Shown: piece by piece, positions 29,710 to 46,005 of the stretch
Layout: every line of letters starts with the position of its first letter
Position numbering within the stretch: the first letter of the stretch is position 1
Sequence record: PZ445414.1
Length of the DNA: 49,911 nucleotides
Reading direction: 5' to 3' (one strand)
From: a phage
Notes under the pieces: generated by a model
Seen by the model: only the letters and a program-made list of their open reading frames with translations
What the model was told of the DNA's origin: nothing
Database searches by the model: none
Made by a program: the position numbers and the translations under genes

Positions 29710-30126
29710 ATGGTTACTGACAAAGGCGATTATCTGGAATATTACGAGAGGGATCCGAGCGATACGCGCAAGGAAGATTCTCACCAGGTTGATTGTGTGG
29801 CGTGGTTGCGCCACCACTACCCACACTTGCTCTTTTGGCACACTGTAAACGAGGGGAGCAAGACAATCACCGCCGCGCTGCGTGACGAACAGGCCGGATT
29901 GCTAAAGGGCGTATCAGACTTTGTTATCCTGATTGGTTCTGGTAAATACCCGTTTGCAGCCATAGAGCTAAAGCAAGCCAACAAATCAGGCAAGCGCAAG
30001 GCTTCACCAGTCAGCGACAACCAGAAAGCTTTCTTGAGCAGGGTTAGACACTTGGGAGGTTTCGCAGCCGTTTGCTATGGCGTGAAGCAATTCAAGCTTG
30101 CAATTGCAGATCTCTTGCAGGAATAG
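29710..30126 (+). CDS. VRR-NUC domain nuclease
   Basis: 138 aa; motif DFVILIGSGKYPFAAIELKQ (D..E.K) typical of VRR-NUC; start ATG right after helicase stop. Confidence 0.6.
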   Translation: MVTDKGDYLEYYERDPSDTRKEDSHQVDCVAWLRHHYPHLLFWHTVNEGSKTITAALRDEQAGLLKGVSDFVILIGSGKYPFAAIELKQANKSGKRKASPVSDNQKAFLSRVRHLGGFAAVCYGVKQFKLAIADLLQE

Positions 30127-32179: not shown

Positions 32180-32193
32180 AAGAGGAAAAATTA

Positions 32194-33312
32194 ATGATTC
32201 AGAAAATGACAGATCAGCAGTTTAAAGACGCACGAGCGGAGGGTAAAACCTACAAGCAGATCGCGGAGGAGTTCGGCTTGAATGTTCGCACCGTTGAGCG
32301 CCGCGCCGCTCGCCTGGCTCGCGCAGGTGAAACCGAAATCAAAGGAGCACCAGGTTTTGCGGTTGTTCGTGAGTCAGTCCTTACCCGCGCAAACGGCGAA
32401 GAAGTGATGCGCTGGACTATCACCAACAAAGATAAAGAGCAGTTGGAAGCACTCATGCAAGCCGCGATGGATGCATTTGCTGAGGAAGTTCCGCGCCTTG
32501 AGCCTCAGCCGGAAAGCCGAAAGGACTACAGCGAAAGCCTGGCGCTATACCCTATCTTTGACATGCACATTGGCGCAATGGCTCACAAGCATGAATGTGG
32601 TGAGAATTGGGACACGGCAACAGCCGAGAAGGTCATGAATGACTTCTTTGATTATGCGGTTGAGTGTGCGCCAAATAGCGAGAAAGCCGTGCTCCTGATT
32701 GGTGGAGACATGCTTCACAGTGACGGCCTGGAGGCTGTAACACCTGCCAGCGGTCACGTTCTGGATCAGGATAGCCGCTACGCCAAACTTGTTTATGTCG
32801 CAATCCGAGCAACTCGCCGCGCTATCTCATTGATGTTGACCAAGCACAAAGAAGTTGAAATTCAGGTAATCGAGGGCAATCATGACCAATCAGGCATGAT
32901 CTGGCTACGCGCAGCAATGGCTGCGGCATACGAGGACGAGCCGCGCGTGATGGTTGATGTTTCACCTCGCGTAGTGCATCACACGCAGTACGGAAAAACA
33001 TTCCTCGCGTATCATCACGGTCACACCGTGCGCAAGCCGGAAACGTTATTGATGATGTGTGCGGCAGATTGGCGAGAGGATTTTGGCAAATCAAAATCAA
33101 TGTATGCTCATGTAGGCCATTGGCATCACCAGACCGTAACAGAAACCAGCCTGGGTATTGTTGAAGTTCACAGCACTATGGCGGCTAAAGATGCGTATGC
33201 GGCACGTGGCGGCTGGCGCTCTCGTCGTCGCGCTGCGGTTATAATCTACGACAAAGAGCACGGCGAGATCGGTCGATTCATGTTCTACCCTGAAATGATG
33301 GAGTCAAAATAA
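32194..33312 (+). CDS. metallophosphoesterase (calcineurin-like) with N-terminal HTH
   Basis: motifs DMH, GDMLHSD, GNHDQ, YHHGH, HVGHWHH; N-terminal YKQIAEEFGLNVRTVERR HTH-like segment. Confidence 0.6.
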   Translation: MIQKMTDQQFKDARAEGKTYKQIAEEFGLNVRTVERRAARLARAGETEIKGAPGFAVVRESVLTRANGEEVMRWTITNKDKEQLEALMQAAMDAFAEEVPRLEPQPESRKDYSESLALYPIFDMHIGAMAHKHECGENWDTATAEKVMNDFFDYAVECAPNSEKAVLLIGGDMLHSDGLEAVTPASGHVLDQDSRYAKLVYVAIRATRRAISLMLTKHKEVEIQVIEGNHDQSGMIWLRAAMAAAYEDEPRVMVDVSPRVVHHTQYGKTFLAYHHGHTVRKPETLLMMCAADWREDFGKSKSMYAHVGHWHHQTVTETSLGIVEVHSTMAAKDAYAARGGWRSRRRAAVIIYDKEHGEIGRFMFYPEMMESK

Positions 33313-33482
33313 TGAAGGTTAAATGCGTTGAGAATTCATCTAAAACACTGCCTTACTACGAGGGCTTTGTGTACGAGGCCGATCCATTACCTGGCGGGAT
33401 GTACAAGATTAAAGATGAATCAGGGCAGCATATTATTGCGCCGCTAAAAGGGCATTATCTGGAGTTTTTACAGATTGATTAA
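33312..33482 (+). CDS. hypothetical protein (56 aa)
   Basis: ATG overlaps upstream stop (TAATG); followed by intrinsic terminator. Confidence 0.35.
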   Translation: MKVKCVENSSKTLPYYEGFVYEADPLPGGMYKIKDESGQHIIAPLKGHYLEFLQID

Positions 33483-33506
33483 CATTTAATTTCATGAGCT
33501 TACAAA

Positions 33507-33534
33507 GGGCTGGCGTTTGCTAGCCCTTTTTTTA
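33507..33534 (+). terminator. intrinsic terminator before lysis cassette
   Basis: gggctgg cgtttg ctagccc ttttttt. Confidence 0.65.
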
Positions 33535-33609
33535 TTGTTTCGCTTTTGCTCATTGCTGGTTAACATACACTCACTTAATTATTGACATTTTGCACGAGGA
33601 GGTTAGATC

Positions 33610-33825
33610 ATGAGAGAATTTTTAAACGCAGCAACCACCAGCACCGGAGGCGCATCACTGACGGGCGCGGCGACGGGGCAAATTACCATTGCGGTTGCTG
33701 GTCTTATCCTAATGGCGGCTTTCGGCTTTTGGGGCGCGTATCTGCGCTGGAAGGATAGCAAGGCGCTGCGAGAGGCTTTGGATCGTGAAGATATCAAAGA
33801 GGCAATTCGAATCAGGGGGAAATAA
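33610..33825 (+). CDS. holin (pinholin-like)
   Basis: 71 aa; Gly/Ala/Ser/Thr-rich weakly hydrophobic TMD1 then hydrophobic TMD2, charged C-terminus; directly upstream of SAR-type endolysin; SD GAGGAGG. Confidence 0.65.
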
Positions 33826-34322: not shown

Positions 34323-34714
34323 AACGATTAGCTTTGGCGGTACTGGTTGCCGCCTCTCTTTCTGGTTGTTCAGCGTCAAGCGCTCTGAGCGGTTTAATCG
34401 GCAGCAAGCCGGAAATCACAGCACAGGCCGGAGCCGAAAACGTAAAGCAAACAGTAGGCGTGACGGCAAAGAATGACGAGAGCAGCAAGCAGGAAAACAC
34501 GATCAAGGATTCGCAGGTTGGCAAGGTTGACTCCTCCAACAAAAAGAAGGTGAGCACTTCAAGCATCCAGGCTGAGACAATCACAGCCGACAAGATCGAG
34601 ATCAGAAACAGCGAGAGCGATTTGTATGTGATGTTCTTTGCGCTTGCTTGCTTATTTGTTGCTGGCTTTGCCGCTGGCGTTTTTTGGAAGGGCAGAAAAA
34701 ATAAAGGGGCATAA
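34319..34714 (+). CDS. unimolecular spanin (lipoprotein with C-terminal TMD)
   Basis: N-terminal lipobox LSGC, C-terminal TM helix [22 protein letters not shown]; position after endolysin, as for T1 gp11-type u-spanins. Confidence 0.7.
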
Positions 34715-34727
34715 TGCCCCTTTTTTC
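34706..34727. terminator. bidirectional terminator after spanin gene
   Basis: aaaggggc ataat gcccc tttttt. Confidence 0.7.
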
Positions 34728-43062: not shown

Positions 43063-43305
43063 ATGCTATCAATTCGCAACTGGTTTATGCGCTTCATCGG
43101 GAAAGAGGTTGAGGCTTTCGGCTACAACATTCCGGCAAACTTCAAGCGTGCTTGTCCTGGCAATGCCAGCGGGGTTTATTGGGAAATGCCAGACGGCACA
43201 TACTGGTTCACGGTTATTTCTGGAATGCCGATCCAGGTTAGTGAGCGCGACTATGAGCGCGGAACGTGGTTTACAGCAATGCAAGAGGTCGGGGAGGAAT
43301 TTTAA
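43063..43305 (+). CDS. hypothetical protein
   Basis: 80-aa ORF; Trp/Phe-rich. Confidence 0.4.
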   Translation: MLSIRNWFMRFIGKEVEAFGYNIPANFKRACPGNASGVYWEMPDGTYWFTVISGMPIQVSERDYERGTWFTAMQEVGEEF

Positions 43306-43841
43306 TGATCAAATTTGAGCTTTGGGGTTACACATACCATCTGCGCGGCACTTATGGTGTCGCAATCGTTGACCTGGACGGCACGCTTTCGGACGGCACG
43401 CACCGCTTGCACCTGCTGCCAACAAAGGACTTGCACCTCACTGAAAGCTGGAGCGAGTTTAACAAGGCGGCTGCAAACGACAAGCCGATCCAGAGCACGA
43501 TTGATGTTGTGCGCAACCTTTGGCGTGCTGGAATGGGCGTCGTTATCCTGACTGGTCGCAGTGACGAGGTGGAAACCGACACTATCCTTTGGCTAGACCG
43601 CCATAAGGTGAAATATGACTGGCTTATCATGCGCCGCGCCGAGGATAACCGAAAGGACACCGTTATCAAAGAGGAGGTGTTGCGTGCAATAGGTCTGCAT
43701 CATATTACGTGCGCCTTTGACGACTCGCCAAACGTGATCAGCCATTTCCGCAGCCTGGGAATCACAACCTATCAGGTGACGGAATACGACAAGCCTCACT
43801 CTCATTTGCAGAGTCACGGCGTGGATGAATTAGATGGATAA
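43305..43841 (+). CDS. HAD-superfamily phosphatase (DxDGT motif)
   Basis: 178 aa from ATG 43305 (SD GGGGAGG); motif I VAIVDLDGTLSDGTHR as in HAD hydrolases / polynucleotide 3'-phosphatases. Confidence 0.5.
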   Translation: MIKFELWGYTYHLRGTYGVAIVDLDGTLSDGTHRLHLLPTKDLHLTESWSEFNKAAANDKPIQSTIDVVRNLWRAGMGVVILTGRSDEVETDTILWLDRHKVKYDWLIMRRAEDNRKDTVIKEEVLRAIGLHHITCAFDDSPNVISHFRSLGITTYQVTEYDKPHSHLQSHGVDELDG

Positions 43842-45438: not shown

Positions 45439-46005
45439 ATGAAAAAGGTAATTATTCTCAACGCGCCACCAGGGGCTGGCAAAGACACCATCGGAAATCT
45501 GATTTGCAAGCATGCTCCGCAATACGTTGTTAAGCGCTCATTCAAAGAGCCGATGTTCAAGATCGCAAAGGCAATGTTGGGTGATTATCGTTTCGGTCTG
45601 TTTATGCAAGCGTATGACGACAGGGGGCAGAAAGAAAGAGCGCAATCTTTCCTGAATGGTAAATCACCTCGCCAGTTTATGATCTGGATTAGCGAGGACG
45701 TGATAAAACCTCAATTTGGGGATCAGTATTTTGGCGTGGTAATGGCTGAGGCCGTGCGAGATAGCCAGGTTCCGGTTGTCATTACTGACGGCGGTTTCCC
45801 CGATGAAGTTAAACCACTGGTCAGTGCTGGGATTCAGGTAAACATTTGCCGCCTACATCGTGACGGCTACACGTTTGCCGGAGATAGCAGGGATTATCTC
45901 AATCTTGAGGGCTACCATCACCGAATCGTGACGCGAGATTACATCCTGGTAAATGGCGATCCGATGCATACAATGATTCAGATCTGTGAGGATATTTTGG
46001 AATGA
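45439..46005 (+). CDS. P-loop kinase (putative nucleotide/polynucleotide kinase)
   Basis: 188 aa; Walker A NAPPGAGKDT at N-terminus; TAATG coupling. Confidence 0.5.
   Translation: MKKVIILNAPPGAGKDTIGNLICKHAPQYVVKRSFKEPMFKIAKAMLGDYRFGLFMQAYDDRGQKERAQSFLNGKSPRQFMIWISEDVIKPQFGDQYFGVVMAEAVRDSQVPVVITDGGFPDEVKPLVSAGIQVNICRLHRDGYTFAGDSRDYLNLEGYHHRIVTRDYILVNGDPMHTMIQICEDILE

What the first reader, a model, noticed from the sequence alone, without database searches (positions are those of the whole stretch)
32194..33312. Metallophosphoesterase fused to an N-terminal HTH
Seen in sequence: calcineurin-like phosphoesterase motifs (DMH, GDMLHSD, GNHDQ, YHHGH, HVGHWHH) preceded by a helix-turn-helix-like segment (YKQIAEEFGLNVRTVERRAARLAR). 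Could be a protein phosphatase, a nuclease of the Mre11/SbcD type, or a DNA-binding regulator with enzymatic output; it is the last gene before the lysis cassette.
Basis: partly seen in the sequence, partly recalled or inferred. Interest (0 to 1): 0.4.

Follow-up and report, generated by a model that had tools for sequence, protein, structure and literature searches.

The report
Phage HTH-tethered Mre11-like phosphoesterase
This gene of a T1-like coliphage encodes a DNA-binding-type domain fused to a metal-dependent phosphoesterase that most resembles Mre11/SbcD nucleases; the family is very common in phages and has never been studied biochemically, and a recent preprint reports that losing the ortholog lets a related phage escape a bacterial defence system.

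Summary
ORF 32194..33312(+) is bas10_0042 of Escherichia phage IsaakIselin (Drexlerviridae). It encodes an N-terminal sigma-70-region-4/LuxR-type HTH, a linker and a complete calcineurin-type metallophosphoesterase (MPE) domain. All metal ligands are invariant or nearly so across relatives of 30-55% identity. The family is phrog_704, with over 2,000 phage records and 4,542 clusters at 50% identity.

Fold and profile searches place it nearest Mre11/SbcD, PolD DP1 and the PdeM nuclease, and far from PPP protein phosphatases. It lacks a capping domain, and the phage encodes no Rad50/SbcC.

It is not strictly the last gene before the lysis cassette. An SH3 (DUF7244) ORF, a strong terminator-like hairpin and a promoter-like site separate them. 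In E. coli prophages a 65%-identical homolog sits beside DnaB in the replication module.

Three unrelated phage lineages carry an ordered cassette: MPE, HAD 3'-phosphatase, T4-gp1-like dNMP kinase.

A 2026 preprint reports that mutations in the Bas1 ortholog (57% identity) let that phage escape DRT7/UG10, and that the protein is toxic in E. coli.

Best reading: a stand-alone, HTH-tethered DNA nuclease serving host-DNA breakdown and nucleotide salvage, or DNA-end processing. Substrate and role are inferred. Interest is moderate.

The parts
32180..32186 (+). Shine-Dalgarno-like AAGAGGA, 7 nt upstream of the ATG
   Evidence: Read directly from the sequence.
32194..33312 (+). CDS of the HTH-metallophosphoesterase (372 aa) = bas10_0042 of Escherichia phage IsaakIselin, annotated 'hypothetical protein'
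   Evidence: ORF list. 100% match to MZ501077.1 32727-33845. phrog_704 E=1.2e-147 over the full length.
32212..32322 (+). N-terminal three-helix HTH (aa 7-43), sigma-70 region 4 / LuxR-GerE type
   Evidence: Pfam PF08281 at 27.2 bits, above the 25.7 gathering score. Helices 7-15, 20-27 and 31-43 with pLDDT 76-87. The family profile hits GerE 1fse at E=0.004. Many relatives hit HTH Pfam families.
32356..32475 (+). Linker module (aa 55-94): a beta-hairpin plus a helix, containing G68 (invariant in the family) and W74 (>=90% conserved)
   Evidence: Secondary structure of the model, though confidence here is low (pLDDT 50-63). Conservation. Function unknown.
32530..33288 (+). Calcineurin-type metallophosphoesterase catalytic domain (aa 113-365). 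Motif I DMH at 32560-32568, motif II GDMLH at 32704-32718, motif III GNHD at 32875-32886, motif IV HHGH at 33013-33024, motif V GHWHH at 33115-33129. Also a family-specific loop, AVTPASGHVLDQDSR (aa 181-195).
33312..33482 (+). Downstream 56-aa ORF (bas10_0043), a DUF7244 SH3-clan protein. Its ATG overlaps the target's stop codon (TAATG), so it is probably co-translated.
   Evidence: Pfam PF23896 E=6.3e-28. Sequence overlap. Described as a standalone SH3 protein in PMC13164509.
33504..33539 (+). Intrinsic-terminator-like hairpin (11-bp stem, 4-nt loop, T-tract) that would end the helicase-Dam-MPE-SH3 transcription unit
   Evidence: Scan. RNA fold -19.7 kcal/mol, z = -3.4. A hairpin in the equivalent position exists in Bas01 at L163:39980-40003.
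33582..33611 (+). Best sigma-70-like promoter match in the region (TTGACA-18-GATCAT, 10/12), immediately upstream of the holin ORF (33610..33825)
   Evidence: Scan. This is a consensus match only; the number of sites in the region is not above the shuffled expectation.
43305..43841 (+). Candidate functional partner: bas10_0069, annotated 'polynucleotide kinase' but containing only a HAD_PNKP 3'-phosphatase domain (DLDGT motif)
   Evidence: Pfam PF25109 E=3.7e-21. PDB Pnkp1 4xrp E=2.7e-8 and the T4 PNK phosphatase domain. It lies immediately downstream of the MPE homolog in K1H, Era103 and vB_YenM_646.
45439..46005 (+). Candidate functional partner: bas10_0077, a P-loop protein resembling T4 gp1 dNMP kinase
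   Evidence: phrog_139 E=1.3e-45. hhalign against T4 gp1 gives 81% probability over 74 columns, including the GKDT and LNGKSP motifs; against T4 Pnkp only the P-loop aligns. It is the third gene of the MPE-HAD-kinase cassette in K1H, Era103 and vB_YenM_646.

Best explanation
bas10_0042 is a catalytically competent binuclear metallophosphoesterase of the nuclease branch (Mre11/SbcD, PolD-DP1, PdeM-like). It works on its own, without a Rad50/SbcC ATPase and without a capping domain. An N-terminal sigma-4/LuxR-type HTH tethers it to DNA. It is transcribed as the last enzyme gene of the helicase / VRR-NUC / Dam operon. Its most likely action is to cut or degrade DNA in the infected cell. The most probable role is breakdown of the host chromosome to feed the phage nucleotide pool, with the HAD 3'-phosphatase and the gp1-like dNMP kinase acting on the products. 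A second possible role is processing DNA ends for recombination-dependent replication. That activity, or its DNA or nucleotide products, is what makes T1-like phages sensitive to the DRT7/UG10 reverse-transcriptase defence. Shown: the domain architecture, the intact active site, the fold, the family's distribution, the gene context, and (by others, for the 57%-identical ortholog) dispensability, toxicity and DRT7 escape. Inferred: that the substrate is DNA, that the HTH binds DNA, and the physiological role.
Confidence: 0.55

Rival explanations
1. It is a DNA-end-processing enzyme that works against RecBCD, acting as an enzymatic counterpart of lambda Gam. The nuclease would resect or remodel the ends of the phage's linear or concatemeric DNA for RecE/Erf-dependent replication, so that RecBCD cannot load. 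DRT7 would sense the resulting loss of RecBCD function.
For: Lambda-vir escapers of the same defence map to gam, the RecBCD inhibitor, and Gam co-expression activates DRT7. The phage has a RecE-like/Erf/SSB recombination module but no recognised Gam/Abc homolog in its annotation. In prophages the homolog sits next to DnaB and NinB. YqaJ, NinB, SSB and VRR-NUC genes are recurrent neighbours. The closest fold is SbcD/Mre11.
Against: There is no evidence of any interaction with RecBCD. The protein's strong toxicity is not explained by RecBCD inhibition alone. The cassette with a dNMP kinase and a 3'-phosphatase points to nucleotide metabolism. The preprint's authors themselves leave the link open.
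Confidence: 0.18
2. It is a nucleotide-directed phosphoesterase: a (d)NDP/(d)NTP, dinucleotide or cyclic-nucleotide hydrolase that reshapes nucleotide pools or destroys immune second messengers. It would work together with the HAD phosphatase.
Confidence: 0.1
3. It is the end-healing phosphoesterase (2',3'-cyclic phosphodiesterase / 3'-phosphatase) of a split nucleic-acid repair kit, like the MPE module of bacterial Pnkp. It would counter defence nucleases that leave 3'-phosphate or cyclic-phosphate ends.
For: It is adjacent to a HAD_PNKP phosphatase gene in three lineages and to a DNA ligase in Era103. The HAD protein's best PDB relatives are Pnkp1 and T4 PNK.
Confidence: 0.07
4. It is a transcription factor in which the HTH is the business end (for example a late-gene or lysis-gene regulator) and the MPE domain acts as a sensor or is vestigial. 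Or it is a PPP-like protein phosphatase of the lambda type.
For: The HTH is of the sigma-70 region 4 / LuxR type. The gene lies just upstream of the lysis cassette in 508 of 522 Drexlerviridae (PMC13164509). Lysozyme is a neighbour in 8 of 25 lineages. From memory, lambda's own MPE phosphatase also lies just upstream of Q and the lysis genes.
Against: The active site is under strict purifying selection, whereas the HTH sequence varies widely. Frameshift mutants of the ortholog form plaques. A terminator-like hairpin and a promoter-like site separate the gene from the holin. The prophage homologs have no lysis genes within 9 kb. The PPP motif GDxxDRG is absent and PPP folds are distant.
Confidence: 0.05

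Closest known systems
Mre11 / SbcD nucleases (bacterial SbcCD, archaeal and eukaryotic Mre11-Rad50, T4 gp47, T5 D12/D13)
   Different: About 12-16% identity. No SbcD/Mre11 model in Pfam or NCBIfam is matched. There is no capping domain, because the protein ends right after the MPE core. The genome encodes no Rad50/SbcC ATPase. It has an extra N-terminal HTH and linker module and a family-specific AVTPxSGHxLDxDxR loop.
PolD small subunit DP1 (archaeal 3'-5' proofreading exonuclease) and the eukaryotic polymerase B-subunits
   Different: This phage has no DP2-like catalytic subunit and no DNA polymerase gene at all. No OB fold was detected. Identity is about 14%.
PdeM / 'nuclease MPE' of the ligase-associated DNA damage response (P. 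putida MPE, PDB 6nvo)
   Same: A stand-alone MPE nuclease needing no ATPase partner. Motifs II and III align (LGDFLHA, GNHD) and it is one of the only two PDB families reached by the catalytic-domain profile. There is a weak NCBIfam TIGR04123 hit.
phrog_704 'DNA repair exonuclease' (the T1 p16 family): catalogued but uncharacterised phage proteins
   Same: Full-length member (E=1.2e-147). It is a persistent gene of Drexlerviridae, present in 508 of 522 genomes (PMC13164509). The Bas1 ortholog bas01_0050 is a DRT7 escape locus.
   Different: None: this is the family the gene belongs to. The family name is an automated label with no experimental basis.
Lambda Ser/Thr protein phosphatase (PPP family)
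   Same: It belongs to the MPE superfamily and is a phage gene located upstream of the lysis region.

Membership tests
Calcineurin-like metallophosphoesterase superfamily | Five ordered motifs: DxH, GD, GNH[DE], H, GHxH (the metal ligands and the catalytic His) | tested here: met
   D123/H125, D172, N229/H230, H275 and H309/H311 are present and invariant or >=90% conserved in 52 relatives.
Calcineurin-like metallophosphoesterase superfamily | Pfam PF00149 Metallophos score above the gathering threshold | tested here: not met
   13.8 bits against a cut-off of 21.5, E=0.079. Of 52 relatives, 11 reach E<=0.01, best 2.7e-5. The family is too divergent for the Pfam model.
Calcineurin-like metallophosphoesterase superfamily | Double beta-sheet sandwich MPE fold | tested here: met
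Calcineurin-like metallophosphoesterase superfamily | Metal-dependent phosphoester hydrolysis | not testable with these tools
   Needs an enzyme assay.
Mre11/SbcD nucleases | Nuclease-type motif II with a conserved histidine (GDxxH) | tested here: met
   GDMLH, with H175 invariant. It aligns to T. maritima Mre11 GDLLHS.
Mre11/SbcD nucleases | Match to curated SbcD/Mre11 sequence models | tested here: not met
   No SbcD/Mre11 family appears in the Pfam or NCBIfam scans at E<=10. Profile hits to PDB Mre11/SbcD reach only E 0.05-0.5.
Mre11/SbcD nucleases | Capping domain C-terminal to the nuclease domain | tested here: not met
Mre11/SbcD nucleases | A cognate Rad50/SbcC SMC-like ATPase encoded with it | tested here: not met
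   None among the 90 annotated genes. The large non-structural proteins are an SF2 helicase, a DUF3987 protein and a RecE-like protein. None was found next to homologs in other lineages.
Mre11/SbcD nucleases | DNA endo/exonuclease activity | not testable with these tools
   Only indirect evidence: the ortholog is toxic in E. coli.
PPP-family protein phosphatases (lambda phosphatase type) | Motifs GDxHG, GDxxDRG, GNHE | tested here: not met
PdeM (TIGR04123, ligase-associated endonuclease) | NCBIfam score above the cut-off | tested here: not met
phrog_704 ('DNA repair exonuclease') | Full-length match to the family profile | tested here: met
   E=1.2e-147, protein residues 3-369 on profile positions 2-389 of 390.
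Sigma-70 region 4 / LuxR-GerE type HTH | Profile match above threshold and a three-helix HTH | tested here: met
   PF08281 at 27.2 bits against 25.7. Three helices at aa 7-43. The family profile hits GerE at E=0.004.
Sigma-70 region 4 / LuxR-GerE type HTH | DNA binding | not testable with these tools
   Needs EMSA or ChIP.
PolD DP1-type polymerase small subunit | A partner catalytic polymerase subunit and an OB fold before the MPE domain | tested here: not met
   No DNA polymerase gene is annotated in the genome. The model shows only a beta-hairpin and a helix between the HTH and the MPE domain.

The most novel reading that the evidence does not exclude
This family is the unidentified host-chromosome-degrading nuclease of T1-like phages. 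It would be a Rad50-independent, HTH-guided Mre11-like enzyme that forms a mobile three-gene nucleotide-salvage cassette with a 3'-phosphatase and a dNMP kinase. Its DNA or nucleotide products would be the danger signal that switches on the DRT7/UG10 reverse-transcriptase defence, and possibly other defences that sense DNA breakdown. That would make it the enzymatic counterpart of lambda Gam as a trigger.
Probability: 0.3. Interest if true: 0.62.

Novelty: new variant of a known kind. Interest (0 to 1): 0.42.

Why it matters
The family is one of the most widespread uncharacterised enzyme families in tailed phages. It occurs in over 2,000 sequenced phages, forms 4,542 clusters at 50% identity, and is a persistent gene of Drexlerviridae. 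No Pfam model captures it and nobody has assayed it. A stand-alone Mre11-like nuclease directed by its own HTH would show how the Mre11 catalytic core can work without Rad50. The family is now the only known T1-like determinant of sensitivity to DRT7/UG10, whose trigger is unknown, so knowing what the enzyme does would make that trigger testable. It also offers a concrete candidate for the nuclease behind host-DNA breakdown in T1-like phages. That bears on nucleotide salvage, on generalised transduction, and on defences that sense DNA-degradation products.

Tried and rejected
1. Single-sequence search of PDB with the whole protein found nothing useful: only a designed HTH repeat and a nanobody.

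2. A whole-family profile search of PDB was dominated by HTH hits. This was solved by building a catalytic-domain-only profile.

Two divergent single queries (P0181, P0216) found nothing in IMG/VR.

4. I first read the K1H/Era103 cassette as a split Pnkp end-healing kit. I dropped that as the main model once the 'polynucleotide kinase' proved to be a HAD phosphatase domain only and the P-loop protein aligned with T4 gp1 dNMP kinase rather than with the Pnkp kinase.

6. The supplementary file of the DRT7 preprint did not list the escape mutations, so they could not be mapped onto the motifs.

7. Literature searches on classical T1 host-DNA-degradation genetics and on other escape screens found nothing on this gene.

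8. A fold search of the viral structure library found only uncharacterised relatives.

9. The P-loop partner has no relative in PDB detectable by sequence.

Full report
IDENTITY OF THE WINDOW AND THE ORF. The window is the complete 49,911-bp genome of Escherichia phage IsaakIselin (BASEL Bas10, MZ501077.1; Drexlerviridae, Tempevirinae, Henuseptimavirus). It is read from a different start point, so window position + 533 = record position. The finding corresponds exactly to ORF 32194..33312(+), 372 aa, which has an AAGAGGA Shine-Dalgarno-like sequence 7 nt upstream. In the record it is bas10_0042, 'hypothetical protein'.

The protein matches phrog_704 ('DNA repair exonuclease') end to end at E=1.2e-147. 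The N-terminal segment matches Pfam Sigma70_r4_2 above its gathering score (27.2 vs 25.7 bits), along with several other HTH families.

SIZE AND ARCHITECTURE OF THE FAMILY. tblastn finds the protein in 2,035 of 50,697 phage records, mainly from Escherichia, Klebsiella, Salmonella and Vibrio phages but also Flavobacterium, Rhodobacter and Ruegeria phages. An exhaustive HMMER scan of 1.84 billion cluster representatives gives 4,542 clusters at E<=1e-3 and 1,005 at E<=1e-30. Every one of the 52 sampled members carries an N-terminal extension of 93-212 aa. Many of these hit HTH families of several kinds (Sigma70_r4_2, HTH_1, HTH_23, HTH_28, HTH_8, GerE), and the family profile hits GerE (E=0.004). 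So the two-part architecture belongs to the whole family. The catalytic core is far more conserved than the HTH. A family-specific loop between motifs II and III (AVTPxSGHxLDxDxR; T183 invariant, L190, D191 and R195 >=90% conserved) is also conserved.

A profile built from the catalytic domain alone reaches only nucleases in PDB: T. maritima Mre11/SbcD (E=0.047-0.47) and the P. putida ssDNA endonuclease 'MPE' (E=0.09). The motifs are in register: SDxHlG, GDlLHs and GNHD. The invariant histidine in motif II (GDxLH) is shared with those nucleases and is not the PPP signature GDxxDRG.

These hits are individually weak and the fold margins are thin, so 'nuclease' is a supported inference and not a demonstration. 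The protein is not a bona fide Mre11/SbcD. No curated SbcD/Mre11 model is matched. There is no room for a capping domain. The genome encodes no Rad50/SbcC-like protein.

GENOMIC CONTEXT IN THIS PHAGE. The gene is the last enzyme gene of a rightward block: SF2 helicase (ResIII + Helicase_C), VRR-NUC nuclease, Dam methylase, several small ORFs, the target, then a 56-aa ORF whose ATG overlaps the target's stop codon. That small ORF is a DUF7244 SH3-clan protein.

Directly after it lies a strong terminator-like hairpin (33504-33529; 11-bp stem and T-tract; -19.7 kcal/mol, z = -3.4). The best promoter-like site of the region follows (33582-33611), just before the holin. A hairpin of different sequence occupies the same position in the distant relative Bas01.

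A recent paper reports the order exonuclease-holin-endolysin-spanin in 508 of 522 Drexlerviridae and the SH3 gene in 188 of 522 (PMC13164509).

CONTEXT ELSEWHERE. In E. coli lambdoid prophages a 64-66% identical homolog lies in the replication module. The order is CI-type repressor, an initiator-like gene (HTH_36 or Lin1244_N), a DUF4379 protein, the HTH-MPE, a DnaB helicase and NinB, with no lysis genes within 9 kb.

In the siphovirus K1H, the podovirus Era103 and the myovirus vB_YenM_646 the homolog heads an ordered cassette: MPE, 'polynucleotide kinase', P-loop protein. IsaakIselin encodes both partners 10-13 kb away. The 'polynucleotide kinase' is in fact only a HAD_PNKP 3'-phosphatase domain (PF25109, E=3.7e-21; best PDB relatives Pnkp1 and T4 PNK). 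The P-loop protein aligns with T4 gp1 dNMP kinase over 74 columns, including the GKDT and LNGKSP motifs (hhalign 81%). With T4 Pnkp it shares only the P-loop.

A census of 254 loci grouped into 25 MPE lineages found four classes of neighbour within 3 kb:
- nucleotide-pool enzymes in 10 lineages (dNMP kinase, HAD, DUF3310, dGTP_diPhyd_N, DUF7768, and DUF6378 of unknown function);
- replication/recombination genes in 8 (YqaJ, DnaB, NinB, VRR-NUC, SSB);
- lysozyme in 8;
- terminase or portal genes in 8.

No partner is universal. The cassette is present in 17 of 73 K1H-like loci and in none of 80 Vibrio-like loci. The lineage count is coarse, because single-linkage clustering merged many loci into two large groups.

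EXPERIMENTAL EVIDENCE FROM THE LITERATURE. The only functional data found concern the ortholog bas01_0050 of phage Bas1 (AugustePiccard), which I verified to be 57% identical over its full length (E=7e-159) and syntenic. [quoted passage not shown] Expression of the gene from pBAD33 was toxic in E. coli. Lambda-vir escapers mapped to gam. Hence the gene is dispensable in the laboratory, harmful to the host on its own, and required for DRT7 to act. The positions of the mutations are not available.

A second preprint (10.64898/2026.01.15.699771) shows that a defence triggered by m6-dAMP released during phage-induced chromosome degradation also protects against a Tunavirinae phage. That is consistent with T1-like phages degrading host DNA. 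From memory and not verified here: classical work on T1 described host-DNA breakdown during infection and mutants defective in it that transduce at higher frequency. In T4, the Mre11/Rad50 homologs gp47/gp46 take part in degrading host DNA to nucleotides that gp1 kinase recycles.

MOST LIKELY MECHANISM. An HTH-tethered, Rad50-independent, Mre11-like binuclear metallonuclease acts on DNA. Its most probable role is breaking down host DNA for nucleotide salvage, with the 3'-phosphatase and dNMP kinase as downstream partners. A role in end processing for RecE/Erf-dependent replication is also possible. I put 0.55 on this model as stated, about 0.9 on 'active MPE with an HTH', and about 0.6 on 'the substrate is DNA'.

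RIVALS. In decreasing order:
- an anti-RecBCD end-processing role that parallels Gam (0.18);
- a nucleotide- or second-messenger-directed phosphodiesterase (0.10);
- an end-healing phosphoesterase of a split repair kit (0.07);
- a transcription regulator or a PPP-type protein phosphatase (0.05).

NOVELTY AND VERDICT. The gene is a typical member of a catalogued but wholly uncharacterised family (phrog_704, the T1 p16 family). Viral structure libraries hold only unnamed relatives or ones labelled automatically. Relative to known systems it is a variant of the MPE nucleases with a distinctive architecture: an HTH plus linker, a minimal MPE core, and no ATPase partner. The finding is real and moderately interesting. 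The interest comes from the family's abundance, its new link to DRT7 sensing, and the testable idea that it is the host-DNA-degrading nuclease of T1-like phages.

Noticed in passing
window 33312..33482 (+): The 56-aa DUF7244 SH3-clan ORF overlaps the stop codon of the phosphoesterase gene (TAATG) and lies upstream of the terminator-like hairpin. It therefore appears to be co-transcribed and translationally coupled with the phosphoesterase, not with the holin-endolysin-spanin unit. That sits uneasily with the published proposal that it is an auxiliary lysis factor (PMC13164509).
   Followed up: partly
window 43305..43841 (+): bas10_0069 is annotated 'polynucleotide kinase' but contains only the HAD_PNKP 3'-phosphatase domain (DLDGT motif; PF25109) and has no kinase domain. 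The same misnomer appears to be widespread in phage records.
   Followed up: yes
window 45439..46005 (+): bas10_0077 ('putative P-loop NTPase') has no Pfam match and no relative in PDB detectable by sequence, but it aligns with T4 gp1 dNMP kinase well beyond the P-loop (GKDT and LNGKSP motifs). The family occurs in 1,465 phage records and is very often adjacent to the HAD phosphatase gene.
   Followed up: partly
window 29710..30126 (+): The 'hypothetical protein' bas10_0035, immediately downstream of the SF2 helicase, is a VRR-NUC nuclease (PF08774, E=6e-14). VRR-NUC genes also recur near the phosphoesterase in other lineages.
   Followed up: partly
window 34703..34723 (both strands): A palindromic hairpin (AAAGGGGCAT(A/T)ATGCCCCTTT) flanked by T-tracts on both strands lies right after the spanin gene, between convergent genes. 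It looks like a bidirectional terminator.
   Followed up: no
L164:8042-9034 and L166:8069-9007 (E. coli prophages): In prophages the gene just upstream of the phosphoesterase homolog, overlapping it by 7 nt in L166 and 34 nt in L164, encodes a 312-330 aa protein with weak DUF4379 (zinc-ribbon) hits and only weak or faint CapR and T5orf172 hits. It may be a mobile endonuclease or an unrecognised partner.
   Followed up: no
phage records MG065681.1 and MG065657.1 ('Campylobacter phage A139' and 'C4', 49,946 bp); protein P0049 ('Streptococcus phage MBBL140'): Records labelled as Campylobacter or Streptococcus phages encode proteins 55-81% identical to those of this E. coli T1-like phage. These are probably T1-like contaminants or wrong host assignments.
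   Followed up: no
L163:39208-39693 (Bas01), L167:5668-6168 (ZCSE9), L005:6010-6519 (Vibrio phage 93E29-1a): HNH homing-endonuclease genes are repeatedly inserted immediately downstream of the phosphoesterase gene in unrelated lineages. In Salmonella phage JD02 the homolog is split into two tblastn pieces about 2.3 kb apart. This suggests the locus is a hotspot for mobile endonucleases.
   Followed up: no
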